From Methanobacteriota archaeon (lineage in GTDB: Archaea; Thermoplasmatota; Thermoplasmata; SG8-5; JAGLSY01), in contig JAEHCO010000007.1 in the NCBI GenBank assembly GCA_020697715.1, positions 1-64,000 of the forward strand: a stretch of DNA of 64,000 nucleotides. Direction: 5' to 3'. Made by a program: the position numbers. The stretch's first letter is position 1, and each line of letters starts with the position of its first letter. Of the stretch, positions 54,001 to 60,000 are shown one piece after another.

Positions 54001-57000
54001 GCATAGTTGAAGCTTACAGAGAGAAAGAAGTGAAGGTATGGAATGCCGAGTTCATCGGCGCAGACCCAGAGCTTCTTGGTCTTAAAGGATCACCAACCGA
54101 AGTTAGAAAGACCTTCGCACCAGAGCCAAAAGGAGATGGTGAGATCCTACAGGGAAGCACGGACGAAATGGCCAAACAACTGGTCACTAAACTTGTAGAC
54201 AAGAATATTTTGAGGTGATTCGAATGGCTCAAATTAAAATTGATGAAGATGCATGCATCGGATGCAGCATATGTGTGAACAAATGCCCGGATGCTTATGA
54301 CCTGAATGATGACCAGAAGGCTATCGTGAAGAACCACAATGCCCCATGCGCACAGATCGGAGCAGATGACTGTCCGGTCGGCGCTATAGAGATCACTGGC
54401 GAGATCGTGCCAAGCGAGGCACCAGCTCCAGTAGCAGCTCCTGCACCAGTGGTAGCACAGCCAACAGGCGATTACAAAGGCGTGATGGTATTCGCAGAGC
54501 AGAGAGGCGGAGAGATCAAGAAGGTCACCATAGAACTTCTTGGACGCGGCCGTGGACTGGCTGATGACCTGGGTGTGGAATTATCAGCGGCTCTTATGGG
54601 TCACAATGTGGAAGGACTGGCCAAGGAACTTATCGCAAGAGGCGCGGATAAGGTTTACCTTATCCAGGATGCAAAACTTGAGAATTACAATACTGGCGGC
54701 TATGCAACAGCAATGAGCAAGCTCATAAACACAGAGAAGCCCGAGATCGTCCTTTACGGTGCGACACATATCGGTAGGGATCTGGCTCCAAGGATCGCCA
54801 GGGAACTGCATGCGGGACTTACAGCAGATTGTACGGAACTGACCATAGATCTGGAGCAGAGATTATTGCTTCAGACAAGACCAGCATTCGGTGGGAACAT
54901 AATGGCCACCATCATGTGTCCGAACCACAGACCACAGATGTCAACCGTACGCCCTGGAATAATGAAGGAAATGGATGCAGACCCAGCAAAGACTGGCCAG
55001 GTCATCAACTTCGATGCAGGATTGACAGATGCGGACATAACCACCAGGATCATCGAGATCATCAAGGAGAAGAAGTCAGTGGCTGGCCTTGAGGATGCGA
55101 AGTTCATAGTATCCGGTGGAAGAGGTGTCGGTGGTGCTGATGGTTTCAAGACCATTCAGGCACTGGCAGATGTTCTGGGAGCAGAAGTTGGCGGATCCAG
55201 GGTGGCAGTCGAGAAGGGCTGGATATCCAAGGACCAACAAGTGGGTCAGACAGGAAAAAGTGTCAGGCCAGCCTTGTACATCGCCTGCGGAATATCAGGT
55301 TCGATCCAGCACCGTGCTGGTATGCAGAACGCGGACTTCATCGTGGCCATCAATAAAGATCCAAATGCCCAGATATTCACTGTGGCTGACATTGGCATTG
55401 TTGGTGATCTATTCGATGTACTGCCAAAGCTGATCAATGAGCTTAAAGCAGCTAATATCGGCGCATAGTCAGTAGATAAAATAACTGGATGCTCTTGCTC
55501 TTCAAGGGCATCCAGTCACTCTTAATTTCATTTTATTCACATTCTCTCTAATTAGATCAGCAGCTTTCTAATTAGATATCACCTTTCTAATTAGATCATC
55601 ATTCTTTATTGCGTATGGCTTTGAGGATGAGATAAGCACCACTGATGATCATAAGAATACCACCAATTATGCATATCAAAGCGAATATGTAATCGAGCAA
55701 GAACTGGATGATCTCACCAAGGAATAAAACAAGAAGCCCCAATATCACAATGCCAATGACAGCCCCAATTGTGTAGCCAATATATCTCAGTGTTTCCCTG
55801 AGCTTGCTTTCGGGTTCAGGTTGTGGTGGATACATGATTAACTCCGACATATTATCAATTAACTAAAAATGTATATGAAAATCCCATATGAAAAGTTTGG
55901 GGAGCGTACGTGCCGCCCCCCATTCGTTTGTTTCCCAAATCCCTATTATCTATTCTGAATGTGAACTCAGACAAAGATCAAGATCAGTATCTATCTCTTC
56001 GGGGTGGTCTGTGCTTCTGGTAGCAATCTCTGCAATATACTGGTCTTCCTTCTGCCGGTTTAAATGGCACTTCGCACTCATTTCCACAATCGGAGCATGA
56101 TGCCTTGTGCATTTCTCTATCTCTATTGTACATTCTATTTATCTCCTATTTTACCCATGGCACAAGATAATCCTGGGCCATATGGGTGATGGTTCATTCA
56201 CAATACTGTATATAATAATATGCACAGAAACACAGTCAAATACAGTAAATATATATTGAAAATATCTATAAAGTGAAAATGGGGGCTCTCCGTGATCTGT
56301 CGGAGAGCCCTATTCATTTATGCTTTGCCGAGGGATGAAGTGACCTTATCTGCGATCCCTGTTGTCACGGCCACCGCTTCTGCGGTCCCTTCCGCCGTCA
56401 CGTCCGCCCCTTGATGGTGGGCGTCTCTCGCGCTTTGGAGGTTCGACATATCCCTCTGGCTGTGGTATGAGGGATCTCATGGAGACCTCTACTTTACCAC
56501 GCTCGATCTTGATGATCCTGACCTTGATCTTGTCGCCTTCTTTCAGCTTGTCAGAGACATTCTCAGTCCTTTCCCAGGCGATCTCAGATACATGCAGAAG
56601 ACCATCGGTGTTCCCAAATAGATTGACAAAGGCTCCGAAGTTCATGATCTTGACAACTGTGGCCTCCTCAAAGACATCGCCGACCTCAGCCTCTCTTAGC
56701 AATTCCTTTATTGCAGCCTCAGCCTTCTCAGCCTTCTCCGCATTGTCGGAGGTTATGAGAACCAGTCCACTGTCTTCCAGATCGATCTGAACATCGAATT
56801 CCTCGGTCAAGGCCCTTATGACCTTTCCACCTGGTCCGATGACCTCTCTGATCTTCTCTGGGTCGATCATGAACGATGTTATCCTTGGCGCATATGGTGA
56901 CATCTGCTCTCTTGTTTTCGGTATGCACTTCTCGATGACATCGATTATCTCATTTATCGCCTTCCTCATTGGAGGCATGGTGGCCACGATCATTTCCTTG

Positions 57001-60000
57001 GATATCCCTCTGGTCTTGGTATCCATCTGGACAGCTGTAAGACCATCGCGGGTTCCAGTGAATTTGAAATCCATTCCACCGTCACCGTCCTCAAGGTCCT
57101 GAAGATCGGTAAGTATTTTCCAATCCTTGCCGTCAGATGCGAGACCCATAGCGATACCAGCTACTGGCTTCTTGATCGGAACTCCAGCATCCATCAGAGC
57201 AAGTGTGGAACCACATGTGGCACCCATTGATGATGAACCATTGGAGCTCATGACTTCGCTCACGACCCTAACCGTGTAAGGGAATTCCTCACCTTCTGGG
57301 ATCATTGGCAGAAGTCCTTTCTCTGCAAGGGCACCGTGACCGATATCCCTTCTGCTGGCTCCACGCAATGGCTTGACCTCTCCCACACTAAATGGTGGGA
57401 AATTGTAGTGATGGAAGTACTTCATGCTTCCGTCACTTTCCATGCTCTCGATGGACAGGTCATCACCAGGTGAACCAAGTGTGACTATGGACAAGACTTG
57501 AGTTTCTCCTCTTGAGAATAGTCCAGTACCGTGTGTTCTTGGCAACAGACCGACATCAGCTTTTAGTTCTCTGATCTCGTCCAGCTTACGGCCATCGACC
57601 CTGAGGTCTTTGTCCAGTACGGCCCTTGTGACCTGCTCTTCGATGAATGGGAAGAAGAATGCCTTCAGTAATCCATTCAGGTATTCCGCGGTCGCCTCTT
57701 CATCTCTCTCTGGTGTTGCGAGCTTTTTCTTGAAATCATTGACCAATATCTCTTCCAATCCCTTCAGGATATCCTTTCTCTCACCCTTTGTTCCCTTAGG
57801 GGTGTTGAACAGGTATTTGTCCAGATGTGGGATCGCAGCTTTCTTCAACTGCTCGATCACTGGGGCATCGGATTCCGCTGTGCCTTCTTTCATGATTATC
57901 TGATCCGGGCCTGCCTTCTCCTGGCCGACTTCCTTTCTGATACCATCAATGAACTTGGCCAGAGGTCCCAAGACCTCCATTCCTGCCAGGATACCATCTG
58001 TGATCTGTTTGTCAGTCAATTCATTAGAATCACTGTCAACATTCGTGATCCTCTCACCGTCGCCCATAAGGACCATGTTCAGGTCTGAGTATTCCAGCTC
58101 ATCGACTGTTGGGTTTATGATGAACTCACCGTTCACCAGACCGACCCTGACACCACCAATTGGCCCATCGAAAGGTACCTTGGAGATGTGGAGTGCGGTA
58201 CAAGCTGCTATCATCGCGACTATGTCTGGCTTATTTGTAAAGTCCAGGCAAAGCGGCATGCATATGACCTGTATATCATTCCTCATCAACTGTGGGAACA
58301 GAGGCCTCAGACCTCTGTCTATCTTCCTGCTTGTCAATACTGCCTCATTTGAAGGCCTTCCCTCTCTCTTGAGGAACCTTGGCCCCTTTATCTTTCCTGC
58401 AGCGGAATACTTTTCCTCATAGTCCACCATAAGTGGGAAGAAATCCATGCCTGGCCTTGCACGTGTGGCCATATTGACCGTTGCCAATACAACGGTATCT
58501 CCCATCTGTACAGTGACCGAAGCATCTGACTGATTAGCCATCCTGCCGGTTTCCACTATTAATTTTGTTCCATCTATTTCTGTTTCGAACTTTTTTATTT
58601 CCATATTTTCCAACTCCTTAATATGCCTCGGAGCAGGCCATCAAATAATGGTCAATAATTAAAAAATGATACTGATCTGGAGTTATCTGGATCCTGACCT
58701 TCCATGGTCAGAGCATCCATTACTCCCACTATCCACCATTCCAAAATATCCAACAATCCAATGATCCAACAATACCGGGCTTACCAACTTTTATCCATCT
58801 ATTCTTTTATCTACCAACTGTTTCCAACTTTGCATCCAACAATTTCCATCCTTACCAAATTACGCCCTGCGTATCTTTCAATTCCGTCCTTGTCCAACAC
58901 CATCACAAACATTTGGATCTTTCATCTATATTTCTTATTATAGTTAAAAGGGCGAGATTGTTTTGGCATATAAGGGTTTCTATTAATATATTCATACTCA
59001 ATAAATATCGAAGATAGCGAAACATCTATCCGATATCCCCAAATACTTGAATTATACTTACTGGTCTGGAGATATCATGGTAGATAAGAGAGTGGAAAAC
59101 CTGGCAAAGTTGCTTGTTAATTATTCGATCGATGTTAAGAAAGGACAGGAAATAATCGTGTCTTCCCCGCCAGCGGGTGCTCCTTTGGCACTTGAGGTGT
59201 ACAAAGAAGTTCTCAATGCTGGAGCTCATCCGATGATGATGGGATCAATTGATGGGGCAGCTGAAATATATTATAAAAATGCCTCAGATGAGCAATTGAA
59301 GTTCGTCTCACCATTCAAAAAATACCTTTACAAGAATGCGGATGGACTCGTAGGCATATCCGCGGCCACGAACACAAGGGCCATGTCGGGCGTTGATTCG
59401 AAAAAGATGGCCATGGCCTCTGGAGCCAGCATAGAGATACAGGAGATAGTGAACAAGCGATCCGCCAGTGGTGAGTTCAAATGGGTCGGCTTGATCTATC
59501 CGACCAATGCGCAAGCCCAGGAGGCTTCAATGTCACTTACAGAATATCAGGACTTTGTTTATTCCGCATGCCTGGCCGACAAGCGCGACCCGGTCGCCGA
59601 GTGGAAGAAGGTGAAGAAGGAGCAGGCCAAGATGGTCAAGGTCCTTAACAAGATAGAAAAACTTCATTTCCTCGGAGAGGACACAGACCTGATAATGTCC
59701 GTGAAAGGCCGTGTGTGGGAGAACTGCTGCGGCGAGAAGAACATGCCAGATGGCGAAGTTTTCACAGGTCCAGTAGAGAATTCAGTTGAAGGAAAGATCA
59801 GATTCACTTTCCCAGGAATATACATGGGAAAGGAAATTGAGGATATCACTTTGGAATTCAAGAAGGGTAAGATCGTAAAAGCCACTGCTGAAAAAGGAGA
59901 GGACCTCCTCAAGAACCTCATAGCAGTAGATGATGGCGCGAAGAGGCTGGGTGAAGTAGCCATTGGAACCAATCAGGGCATCAAGAAGTTCACCAAGTCC

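What a model noticed while it worked through the whole genome (the two positions that open the first line are those of the whole stretch)
56346..58613. Bacterial-type polynucleotide phosphorylase coexisting with the archaeal exosome
A 755-aa protein with two RNase PH domains, a KH domain and an S1 domain is a full-length PNPase. It is conserved in most genomes of the order and in another branch of the phylum. The genome also keeps the Rrp4/Rrp41/Rrp42 exosome operon. This contradicts the statement that PNPase is absent from Archaea.
Evidence so far: - Pfam hits. NCBIfam PNPase equivalog at 812 bits against a cut-off of 471. - Orthologs of 62-96% identity in 18 of 22 genomes of the order. - Orthologs of 53-67% identity in 34 of 301 sampled genomes of the phylum. 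- Exosome genes at C11:164356-166630. - The review statement (PMC12599292, call 151).
(Added by a program. Inside this text positions count along the whole contig: contig position 1 is position 1 of the stretch shown here. "Call 12" and the like, gene names such as g00115 and contig names such as C1 are that model's own, and its searches are not shown. The text may have been shortened before it was handed on; [...] marks where a part breaks off. The agent that wrote the report below was given it as the finding of a first reader that could run no searches.)

Follow-up and report, generated by a model that had tools for sequence, protein, structure and literature searches.

The report
Bacterial-type PNPase in an archaeon
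An archaeon of the phylum Thermoplasmatota carries an intact bacterial-style RNA-degrading enzyme (PNPase) next to its own exosome, and several relatives that have the same enzyme have cut the exosome genes out of their genomes.

Summary
Window 56346-58613 (-) encodes a full-length polynucleotide phosphorylase: two RNase PH domains, KH and S1, at 812 bits against a cut-off of 471. The likely start is ATG 58604, giving 752 aa.

It is not a binning artefact. The same 70.8-kb contig begins inside an archaeal 23S rRNA gene. Orthologs occur in 18 of 22 genomes of the order and on single archaeal contigs of 3.6-5.2 Mb.

The gene is constrained: catalytic residues are conserved in 52-53 of 53 archaeal copies, dN/dS is 0.05-0.07, and codon usage matches the host.

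All Thermoplasmatota PNPases form one clade (support 100) nested among Patescibacteria-like sequences, which points to one bacterium-to-archaeon transfer. They share an Arg/Gly-rich disordered C-terminal tail.

The window's genome also keeps Rrp4-Rrp41-Rrp42 and Csl4.

New here: of 34 PNPase-bearing genomes in a 401-genome phylum sample, 21 lack Rrp41. In all five near-complete ones examined, Rrp4-Rrp41-Rrp42 are excised from between SBDS and L37ae. PNPase therefore probably substitutes for the exosome there, and this order shows the state with both.

Public annotation already names these genes. I found no paper that discusses them, and two reviews call PNPase absent from Archaea. Activity and expression are untested.

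The parts
56346..58604 (-). pnp coding sequence (752 aa from ATG 58604; the ORF is open back to TTG 58613; stop codon 56346-56348)
57975..58562 (-). first RNase PH domain plus RNase_PH_C (aa 18-213 in 755-aa numbering); the channel loop reads FLKR where E. coli has FFRR
57621..57974 (-). all-helical linker domain between the two PH domains (aa about 214-331), the least conserved part
   Evidence: helices 201-335 in the model; gapped region in the alignment to 5yjj
56940..57620 (-). second, catalytic RNase PH domain (aa 332-558) with R422, H426, S460-S462, D509, D515 and K517, equivalent to E. coli R399, H403, S437-439, D486, D492 and K494
56703..56879 (-). KH domain (aa 579-637) with a conserved GPGG loop (G593, G596 invariant)
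56481..56690 (-). S1 domain (aa 642-711)
56349..56471 (-). Arg/Gly-rich C-terminal tail (aa 715-755), predicted disordered
   Evidence: tail of 25 aa or more in 51 of 53 archaeal copies; pLDDT below 50 for residues 726-755
58614..58619 (-). AAGGAG ribosome-binding-like motif, 9 nt before ATG 58604
   Evidence: read directly
58654..58666 (-). A/T-rich TATA-like stretch (TTTTTTAATTATT) about 50-60 nt before the ATG; a possible archaeal promoter (inference only)
   Evidence: read directly; no tool covers archaeal promoters
56282..56311 (.). 11-bp G+C-rich hairpin 35 nt after the stop codon, followed on the - strand by a T-rich run; a likely transcript end, so the gene looks monocistronic

Best explanation
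The gene encodes a working polynucleotide phosphorylase. This is a homotrimeric ring enzyme that threads RNA 3' ends past KH/S1 domains into a channel and removes nucleotides with inorganic phosphate, releasing NDPs. In reverse it adds heteropolymeric tails.

An ancestor within the Thermoplasmatota acquired it once from a Patescibacteria-like bacterium. It already carried an Arg/Gly-rich disordered tail, a likely extra RNA-binding segment. It has since been inherited under strong purifying selection.

In this genome it runs from its own promoter, without bacterial degradosome partners, in parallel with the archaeal exosome (Rrp4/Rrp41/Rrp42/Csl4), which performs the same chemistry. In related lineages the exosome genes were deleted after PNPase arrived, so PNPase can carry the 3'-5' phosphorolytic and tailing job alone.

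Shown: the sequence, its domains, the conserved catalytic residues, the archaeal linkage, the single clade, the selective constraint and the exosome deletions. Inferred: the trimer, enzymatic activity, expression, functional overlap with the exosome, the role of the tail, and the identity of the donor.
For: Identity:
- PNPase equivalogs score 812 bits against cut-offs of 471 and 525, with the expected domains.
- The best solved relatives are all PNPases over the full length: 5yjj_A at 595 bits, and Foldseek 7ogl_A at E 3.8e-72 and 4am3_A at TMt 0.91.
- The model has pLDDT 86.6 and pTM 0.82.

Active site:
- The E. coli positions R80, R399, H403, S437-439, D486, D492 and K494 are conserved in 52-53 of 53 archaeal copies.
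- The residue numbers are recalled, then checked on the E. coli K-12 sequence fetched.

Constraint:
- dN/dS is 0.051 against the same-genus copy and 0.066 against a copy 86% identical (a named Thermoplasmata MAG in the clade of the window's family; NG86 method).
- Codon usage sits at the 48th percentile of 794 host ORFs, and GC3 is 0.54 against a median of 0.52.

Archaeal host:
- Window 1-157 (-) is the 5' end of an archaeal 23S rRNA at 110.7 bits.
- Genome contamination is 0.56%.
- The gene is in 18 of 22 genomes of the order.
- Orthologs lie on single contigs of 4.23, 3.58 and 5.16 Mb named Thermoplasmata archaeon.
- In the one-contig genome G171, pnp and Rrp41 (368.8 bits) are on the same molecule.

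Single origin:
- 53 of 53 archaeal rows form one clade, support 100 (FastTree, 177 rows).
- 26 of 26 archaeal rows form one clade, SH-aLRT 100, stem 0.42 (IQ-TREE LG+C20 PMSF, 72 rows).
- The sisters at SH-aLRT 95 include proteins named Candidatus Uhrbacteria and Patescibacteria group.

No bacterial partners: no RNase E/G, RNase R, RNase PH or bacterial RNase J scores over its cut-off in this genome.

Displacement:
- Of the 34 PNPase-bearing genomes in the sample, 21 have no Rrp41 at E <= 1e-40.
- Among high-quality genomes, 9 of the 11 without Rrp41 carry PNPase, although only 12 of 262 carry PNPase at all.
- In 5 of 5 such genomes (95-97% complete), Rrp41, Rrp4 and Rrp42 are absent at E <= 1e-3 apart from PNPase's own domains and, for the Rrp41 and Rrp42 models, a bacterial-type RNase PH gene in three of the five.
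- In those five genomes the superoperon reads PsmA-SBDS-(95-122 nt)-L37ae. The window's genome has 2.3 kb holding Rrp4-Rrp41-Rrp42 in that position.
Against: - No activity, oligomer state or expression data exist. No RNA run holding the locus was listed.
- One ortholog (G019) has an in-frame TAG.
- Two near-complete genomes of the order (G003 at 91% and G004 at 92% complete, family f3) lack the gene, so it is dispensable there.
- The channel-loop residue equivalent to E. coli R79 is Lys in 52 of 53 copies. The effect is unknown.
- The link between PNPase and exosome loss is counted over related genomes, not independent events. Without a species tree I cannot say how many losses there were or that gain came before loss.
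- Donor inference rests on a 'quick' search with SH-aLRT only and on a root placed on E. coli. Several sister sequences are unnamed, and two MAGs labelled Bdellovibrionales fall among the Patescibacteria rows.
- The own order is not one clade in the gene tree, although a forced clade is not rejected (p-AU 0.112).
Confidence: 0.78

Rival explanations
1. The exosome remains the general 3'-5' decay and tailing machine in this organism. PNPase is kept for a narrower job that the exosome does not do well, for example degradation of structured RNA at low temperature, handling of oxidised RNA, small-RNA carrying, or DNA-repair-linked nucleotide chemistry as reported for bacterial PNPases.
For: Both systems have persisted together in at least 17 genomes of the order, which is easier to explain if they are not fully redundant. 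The Arg/Gly-rich tail is conserved in 51 of 53 archaeal copies, suggesting its own substrate or partner preferences. The named relatives and the one DNA run with a habitat label come from cold-seep and deep-sea sediment metagenomes (a weak hint only). The extra roles of bacterial PNPase are mentioned in the passages of PMC12599292 read.
Against: In 21 of 34 PNPase-bearing genomes Rrp41 is gone, and in 5 of 5 examined the three exosome genes are excised. The same protein clade is therefore evidently sufficient on its own. Nothing in the sequence marks a specialised enzyme, because all general catalytic and RNA-binding residues are kept.
Confidence: 0.17
2. The gene is bacterial DNA wrongly binned or chimerically assembled into an archaeal MAG.
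For: The genome is a 34-contig MAG, and contigs often break or mis-join at rRNA genes. Here the archaeal 23S fragment sits at the very contig end. One close homolog carries a bacterial label, [Eubacterium] cellulosolvens.
Against: - The gene is found in 18 of 22 genomes of the order and 33 other genomes of the phylum sample.
- It lies on single 3.6-5.2-Mb contigs named Thermoplasmata archaeon.
- All these copies form one clade at most 52% identical to any bacterial protein found.
- Codon usage is typical of the host.
- Flanking genes are conserved within archaeal families.
- Contamination is estimated at 0.56%.
Confidence: 0.02
3. The gene is a decaying or neutral leftover of a transfer, with no current function.
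For: Two near-complete genomes of the order lack it, and one copy has an internal stop.
Against: dN/dS is 0.05-0.07. The frames are intact in 16 of the 17 copies that score over the cut-off in the order. Catalytic residues are invariant. The clade has been retained over divergence down to 53% identity.
Confidence: 0.03

Closest known systems
Bacterial polynucleotide phosphorylase (Pnp; e.g. E. coli, PDB 3CDI/3GCM/7OGL; C. crescentus 4AM3; 5YJJ)
   Same: It has the same five-part architecture (PH1, helical linker, PH2, KH, S1) and the same catalytic and phosphate-binding residues. It scores at equivalog level. Identity to E. coli is 41% and to the closest bacteria 43-52%. The predicted fold superposes at TMt 0.79-0.93.
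   Different: The host is an archaeon. There is no rpsO-pnp operon context like that of E. coli, and no RNase E/G, RNase R or RNase J partners in the genome. The first Arg of the FFRR loop is Lys. It carries a 31-115-aa Arg/Gly-rich tail that only 8 of 74 named bacterial copies have at 25 aa or longer.
Archaeal exosome (Rrp41/Rrp42 hexamer with Rrp4/Csl4 cap)
   Same: It has the same ring-of-six RNase PH architecture with an S1/KH cap, and the same phosphorolytic and tailing chemistry (established knowledge; similarity stated in PMC7144898, passages read). PH2 of this protein scores 96.8 bits on the Rrp41 model.
   Different: PNPase is one polypeptide used three times, whereas the exosome is built from three to four gene products. 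This protein is far below the Rrp41 cut-off of 318.7 bits. The true exosome genes lie elsewhere in the genome (C11).
Organellar PNPase of eukaryotes (human PNPT1, chloroplast PNPase)
   Same: It is another case of a bacterial-type PNPase working in a lineage whose own cytoplasmic machine is the exosome. The fold matches at TMt 0.74-0.84 with 32-34% identity.
   Different: The eukaryotic enzymes are confined to organelles of bacterial descent. Here the enzyme sits in the same compartment as the exosome, or replaces it.
Exosome-less archaea that use RNase R (Halobacteria, Methanomicrobiales)
   Same: This is a precedent for archaeal lineages that lost the exosome and rely on a bacterial-type 3'-5' exoribonuclease (PMC7144898, passage read).
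   Different: Those lineages use a hydrolytic RNase R and, from recalled knowledge, lack RNA tailing. The Thermoplasmatota lineages here have the phosphorolytic, tail-adding homolog of the exosome itself. No RNase R was found in the window's genome.
Actinobacterial GPSI / PNPase (TIGR02696)
   Same: Same fold and domains, scoring 543 bits.
   Different: The score is far below that model's cut-off of 1106.75 bits, so this protein is not of that subfamily.

Membership tests
Polynucleotide phosphorylase (PNPase, EC 2.7.7.8) | Two RNase PH domains in one chain, joined by a helical domain | tested here: met
   Pfam RNase_PH in 2 stretches plus RNase_PH_C; helices 201-335 lie between them in the model.
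Polynucleotide phosphorylase (PNPase, EC 2.7.7.8) | C-terminal KH and S1 RNA-binding domains | tested here: met
   KH_1 at aa 579-637 and S1 at aa 642-711; the GxxG loop is conserved.
Polynucleotide phosphorylase (PNPase, EC 2.7.7.8) | Full-length score above the curated equivalog cut-offs | tested here: met
   NF008805 scores 812.4 bits against 471; TIGR03591 scores 812.3 bits against 525.05.
Polynucleotide phosphorylase (PNPase, EC 2.7.7.8) | Catalytic and phosphate-binding residues of PH2 (E. coli R399, H403, S437-439, D486, D492, K494; numbers recalled, checked on the K-12 sequence) | tested here: met
   All are present in the window protein and in 52-53 of 53 archaeal copies.
Polynucleotide phosphorylase (PNPase, EC 2.7.7.8) | Homotrimeric ring | not testable with these tools
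   Three copies (2265 residues) exceed the 1000-residue limit of complex prediction. The monomer fold matches subunits of solved trimers.
Polynucleotide phosphorylase (PNPase, EC 2.7.7.8) | Phosphate-dependent 3'-5' exoribonuclease and NDP polymerase activity | not testable with these tools
   Needs a biochemical assay.
Archaeal exosome subunit Rrp41 | Score above the TIGR02065 cut-off of 318.7 bits; a single PH domain of about 250 aa | tested here: not met
   The window protein scores 96.8 bits. The genuine Rrp41 is at C11:165066-165854 with 350.9 bits.
GPSI-type PNPase of Actinobacteria (TIGR02696) | Score above 1106.75 bits | tested here: not met
   543.1 bits.
Bacterial RNA degradosome component | Presence of the scaffold or partner nucleases (RNase E/G, RNase J, RNase Y) | tested here: not met
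   RNase E/G gives no hit. The bacterial RNase J model gives only weak hits of 33 bits or less. RNase Y was not searched.

The most novel reading that the evidence does not exclude
A bacterial PNPase, captured once from a Patescibacteria-like donor, has functionally displaced the archaeal exosome in part of the Thermoplasmatota. Rrp4-Rrp41-Rrp42 were cut cleanly out of the otherwise intact PsmA-SBDS-L37ae superoperon. The window's order (SG8-5, Candidatus Proteinoplasmatales) preserves the intermediate state in which both ring enzymes work in one cytoplasm. This would be a natural experiment in swapping the core 3'-5' RNA decay and tailing machine between domains of life.
Probability: 0.6. Interest if true: 0.8.

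Novelty: new member of a known kind. Interest (0 to 1): 0.66.

Why it matters
Reviews state that PNPase is absent from Archaea (PMC12599292, passage read; PMC12430004, search listing only). The standard scheme of RNA decay gives the exosome to Archaea and Eukarya and PNPase to Bacteria (PMC7144898, passages read). The data here add three points.

- A whole sediment-dwelling branch of the Thermoplasmatota encodes a conserved, constrained PNPase.
- Some members have both machines and others only PNPase. This makes the old question of whether PNPase and the exosome are functionally interchangeable directly testable with natural gene sets.
- The work yields candidate proteins for biochemistry, including a conserved Arg/Gly-rich tail of unknown role. 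It also predicts that 'exosome-less' Thermoplasmatota still make heteropolymeric RNA tails.

It also shows that absence of exosome genes in these MAGs is real, not an assembly gap.

Tried and rejected
- Earlier findings: the search of earlier findings was not open, so no earlier notes were used.
- Expression: the look-up of sequencing runs listed no RNA holder and only two DNA runs with 6-7% of the words. I did not lay reads, so this gives no evidence either way.
- AU test: on the 72-row mixture-model tree it did not finish in three 300-s calls. I repeated it on 29 rows with LG+G4.
- Bacterial operon context (rpsO-pnp): an all-against-all comparison of ORFs flanking pnp in 48 archaeal loci found no neighbour conserved across the clade. 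Conservation was family-specific only, for example an ABC ATPase and one further conserved ORF in family f29. Most of these loci have only 1.5 kb of flank.
- The small CxxC-x17-CxxC protein just downstream looked like a possible partner. It is conserved next to pnp in only 3 independent relatives' loci, and nowhere else among the other loci held, archaeal and bacterial. I dropped it as part of the system.
- Intra-phylum transfer: the own order is not one clade in either tree. The nodes concerned are unresolved and forced monophyly is not rejected (p-AU 0.112), so no transfer is claimed.
- Literature: eight searches found no paper that reports or discusses an archaeal PNPase. Their terms combined PNPase, polynucleotide phosphorylase or polyribonucleotide nucleotidyltransferase with Thermoplasmatota, Thermoplasmata, Thermoprofundales, Proteinoplasmatales, MBG-D, archaea, archaeon, MAGs, HGT or exosome; one search paired Rrp41 with Thermoplasmatota.
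- The genome papers on these lineages (PMC9123169, PMC6461988, PMC9585477) show 0 occurrences of either PNPase term in their main text (search listing). Their supplementary annotation tables are closed and may list the gene.
- Other archaeal phyla were not searched for PNPase.
- Complex prediction was not used, because a trimer exceeds its size limit.

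
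Full report
**What is there.**

Window 56346-58613 (- strand) is one open frame of 755 codons from a TTG. Pfam finds two RNase PH stretches, RNase_PH_C, KH_1 and S1. The NCBIfam PNPase equivalogs score 812.4 bits (NF008805, cut-off 471) and 812.3 bits (TIGR03591, cut-off 525) over residues 9-714. The Rrp41 model reaches only 96.8 bits (cut-off 318.7) and the actinobacterial GPSI model 543 bits (cut-off 1106.75).

The TTG directly follows an AAGGAG motif. The ATG at 58604 lies 9 nt after that motif, and the publicly called product is 752 aa. I therefore take 58604 as the start.

An A/T-rich TATA-like run lies 50-60 nt upstream. An 11-bp hairpin (56282-56311) followed by a T-rich run lies 35 nt after the stop. 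The gene therefore looks monocistronic. The promoter reading is inference.

**Is it intact and constrained?**

- I aligned the protein with the E. coli K-12 enzyme (locus fetched). The positions I recall as functional were first checked on the E. coli sequence itself. R80, R399, H403, S437-439, D486, D492 and K494 are conserved in 52-53 of 53 archaeal copies. R79 of the FFRR loop is Lys in 52 of 53.
- A 47-sequence alignment shows the KH GxxG glycines invariant.
- dN/dS is 0.051 against the same-genus ortholog and 0.066 against a copy 86% identical.
- Codon usage is at the 48th percentile of 794 long ORFs of the genome, and GC3 is 0.54 against a median of 0.52. The gene is thus fully adapted to its host.
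- AlphaFold gives mean pLDDT 86.6 and pTM 0.82. Only residues 1-3 and 726-755 fall below 50.
- Every listed Foldseek match is a PNPase (7ogl_A at E 3.8e-72; 4am3_A at TMt 0.91). The best sequence match among solved structures is 5yjj_A at 595 bits over the full length.

**Is the host really an archaeon?**

The window is C32:1-64000 of a 2.12-Mb, 34-contig genome that is 93.8% complete with 0.56% contamination. The evidence for an archaeal host is as follows.

- The contig starts inside an archaeal 23S rRNA gene: window 1-157 (-), Rfam RF02540, 110.7 bits.
- Named relatives of the protein at 64-96% identity are all Thermoplasmatota MAGs. The best bacterial loci reach 43-48%.
- A member of the same order (G012) has a protein almost identical to one named Candidatus Proteinoplasmatales archaeon SG8-5. 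This names the order.
- Orthologs sit on single contigs of 4.23, 3.58 and 5.16 Mb named Thermoplasmata archaeon.
- The one-contig genome G171 carries pnp and Rrp41 (368.8 bits) on the same molecule.

**Distribution.**

- Own order: 17 of 22 genomes score over the cut-off. G017 has the gene split over two contig ends, giving 18 of 22. Missing are G003 (91% complete), G004 (92%), G013 (59%) and G015 (77%). One copy (G019) has an in-frame TAG.
- Phylum sample: 34 of 401 genomes including the window's.
- Same class, other families: 0 of 104 genomes from ten families.
- Other classes: 33 of 296, concentrated in family f29 (21 of 24), with further copies in f27, f45, f46 and f48-f52.

**Origin.**

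I built two trees.

- FastTree used 177 rows: all fetched loci except three duplicates of the window, five named archaeal proteins, and the first 50 of 150 unnamed cluster representatives. All 53 archaeal rows form one clade with support 100.
- IQ-TREE (quick search, LG+C20+F+G4 PMSF) used 72 hand-picked representative rows. It gives the same result for 26 of 26 archaeal rows: SH-aLRT 100, stem 0.42.

The immediate sisters have SH-aLRT 95. They are a protein named Candidatus Uhrbacteria, one named Patescibacteria group, two unnamed proteins and one unclassified 'bacterium' MAG. The next shell (SH-aLRT 99, within a wider clade at 97) holds Saccharibacteria, Moraniibacteriota, Parcubacteria and Abawacabacteria.

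Because PNPase occurs in 10 of 10 bacterial control genomes, the direction is bacterium to archaeon. The donor is probably Patescibacteria-like. This rests on a quick search rooted on E. coli and is of moderate strength.

The own order is not one clade in the gene tree, but a forced clade is not rejected (p-AU 0.112, 29 rows, LG+G4). I make no claim on transfers within the phylum.

**A shared peculiarity.**

After the S1 domain, 51 of 53 archaeal copies carry a tail of 25 aa or more. The two exceptions are cut by contig ends. The median tail is 44 aa with 39% Arg+Gly. It usually follows an L-(L/T)-P-K-P-E-G-Y linker.

Among named bacterial copies, 8 of 74 have such a tail (median length 10 aa). 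Four of the nearest unnamed or Patescibacteria relatives also have RGG-like tails, so the tail probably came with the gene. I infer that it is an auxiliary RNA-binding segment.

**Context in this genome.**

The classical superoperon SBDS-Rrp4-Rrp41-Rrp42-L37ae is intact on C11, and Csl4 is present. No bacterial RNase PH, RNase R, RNase E/G or RNase J scores over its cut-off. PNPase therefore did not arrive with degradosome partners. Among the families searched here, the exosome and PNPase are the only 3'-5' exoribonucleases found.

**The unexpected result.**

I searched the same 401 genomes for Rrp41 at E <= 1e-40. It is present in 369 of them, but in only 5 of 24 genomes of family f29.

Of the 34 PNPase-bearing genomes:
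- 13 have Rrp41. Three of these are weak hits only (G104, G187, G195).
- 21 do not. Eighteen of these are listed as no-match. G207, G211 and G219 are inferred to lack it because they do not appear among the match rows.

Among genomes at least 90% complete and at most 5% contaminated:
- PNPase is in 12 of 262.
- Rrp41 is missing from 11 of 262.
- 9 of those 11 are PNPase-bearing.

In five such genomes (G040, G051, G068, G086, G092; 95-97% complete), searches at E <= 1e-3 for Rrp41, Rrp4 and Rrp42 hit only the PNPase gene itself. In three of them they also hit a bacterial-type RNase PH of 311-320 bits (cut-off 141.5).

In all five, the superoperon reads PsmA-SBDS-(95-122 nt)-L37ae-...-prefoldin beta. 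The three exosome genes have been cleanly removed. This is a deletion, not an assembly gap.

The counts are over related genomes and do not number independent events.

**Reading.**

The most likely mechanism is the ordinary one for PNPase. Here it acts beside the exosome, and in sister lineages in its place.

Rivals:
- A specialised role beside a dominant exosome is plausible for this particular genome (0.17).
- Contamination (0.02) and decay (0.03) are contradicted.

**Novelty.**

Databases already name the proteins. Eight literature searches found no discussion of an archaeal PNPase. Two recent papers state that it is absent from Archaea (PMC12599292, passage read; PMC12430004, listing only). 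Supplementary tables of the lineage genome papers could not be seen.

As an enzyme it is a new member of a known family. The phyletic pattern and the exosome excisions are what a specialist would find surprising.

Noticed in passing
window 22283-23974 (-), with tRNA-Gln(CTG) at 24331-24403 (+) and tRNA-Thr at 24070-24144 (-): There is a glutamine--tRNA ligase: TIGR00440 at 700.6 bits (cut-off 425.8), scoring above the archaeal GluRS models. From recalled textbook knowledge Archaea lack GlnRS. It is found in 15 of 22 genomes of the order and in 7 of 7 high-quality ones, and none of the four archaeal control genomes rings. This is a second bacterial- or eukaryote-type RNA-related gene in this lineage.
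   Followed up: partly
L127 (G040:C13:23710-24402), L128 (G086:C177:12632-13327), L129 (G092:C3:66811-67506): Three of five exosome-less, PNPase-bearing relatives also carry a bacterial-type RNase PH: TIGR01966 at 311-320 bits (cut-off 141.5). The window's genome has none.
   Followed up: partly
window 55984-56133 (-): A 49-aa CxxC-x17-CxxC zinc-ribbon protein (TIGR04272, 74.8 bits) with its own ribosome-binding motif lies just downstream of pnp. There is a paralog on C30. It is conserved next to pnp only in close relatives.
   Followed up: partly
protein P0108 (WP_455393328.1, on a 22-kb contig): A PNPase labelled [Eubacterium] cellulosolvens nests inside the archaeal clade beside families f48 and f49. 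It is either a mislabelled or contaminated record, or a transfer back to a bacterium.
   Followed up: partly
G104, G187, G195 (places not listed): Three PNPase-bearing genomes have only weak Rrp41 matches (E 1e-50 to 3e-75, against about 1e-100 elsewhere). These may be diverging exosome subunits.
   Followed up: no
protein P0008 (UCG69248.1, on a 4.23-Mb contig): This archaeal PNPase carries what looks like a second S1 domain after the Arg/Gly-rich linker (tail of 115 aa).
   Followed up: no
window 548-10090 (+), 25066-37521 (-), 45527-52219 (+): Three giant proteins of 3180, 4151 and 2230 aa are built of NosD/right-handed beta-helix repeats with PKD, Laminin_G_3, GLUG or fibronectin-III domains. 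They are probably surface proteins.
   Followed up: partly
window 60421-62925, and GC profile at 62001-64000: An Imm5-like protein (60421-60909) and two ThsB-type TIR-like proteins (61030-61800 and 62350-62925) lie beside a drop in G+C to 0.32. This is a possible defence island just past the M29 peptidase that flanks pnp.
   Followed up: no
window 1-157 (-): The contig begins inside the 5' end of an archaeal 23S rRNA gene.
   Followed up: yes
window 52279-55468 (+): An acyl-CoA dehydrogenase is followed by EtfB and by an EtfA with an N-terminal ferredoxin domain. These genes converge on the pnp region.
   Followed up: no
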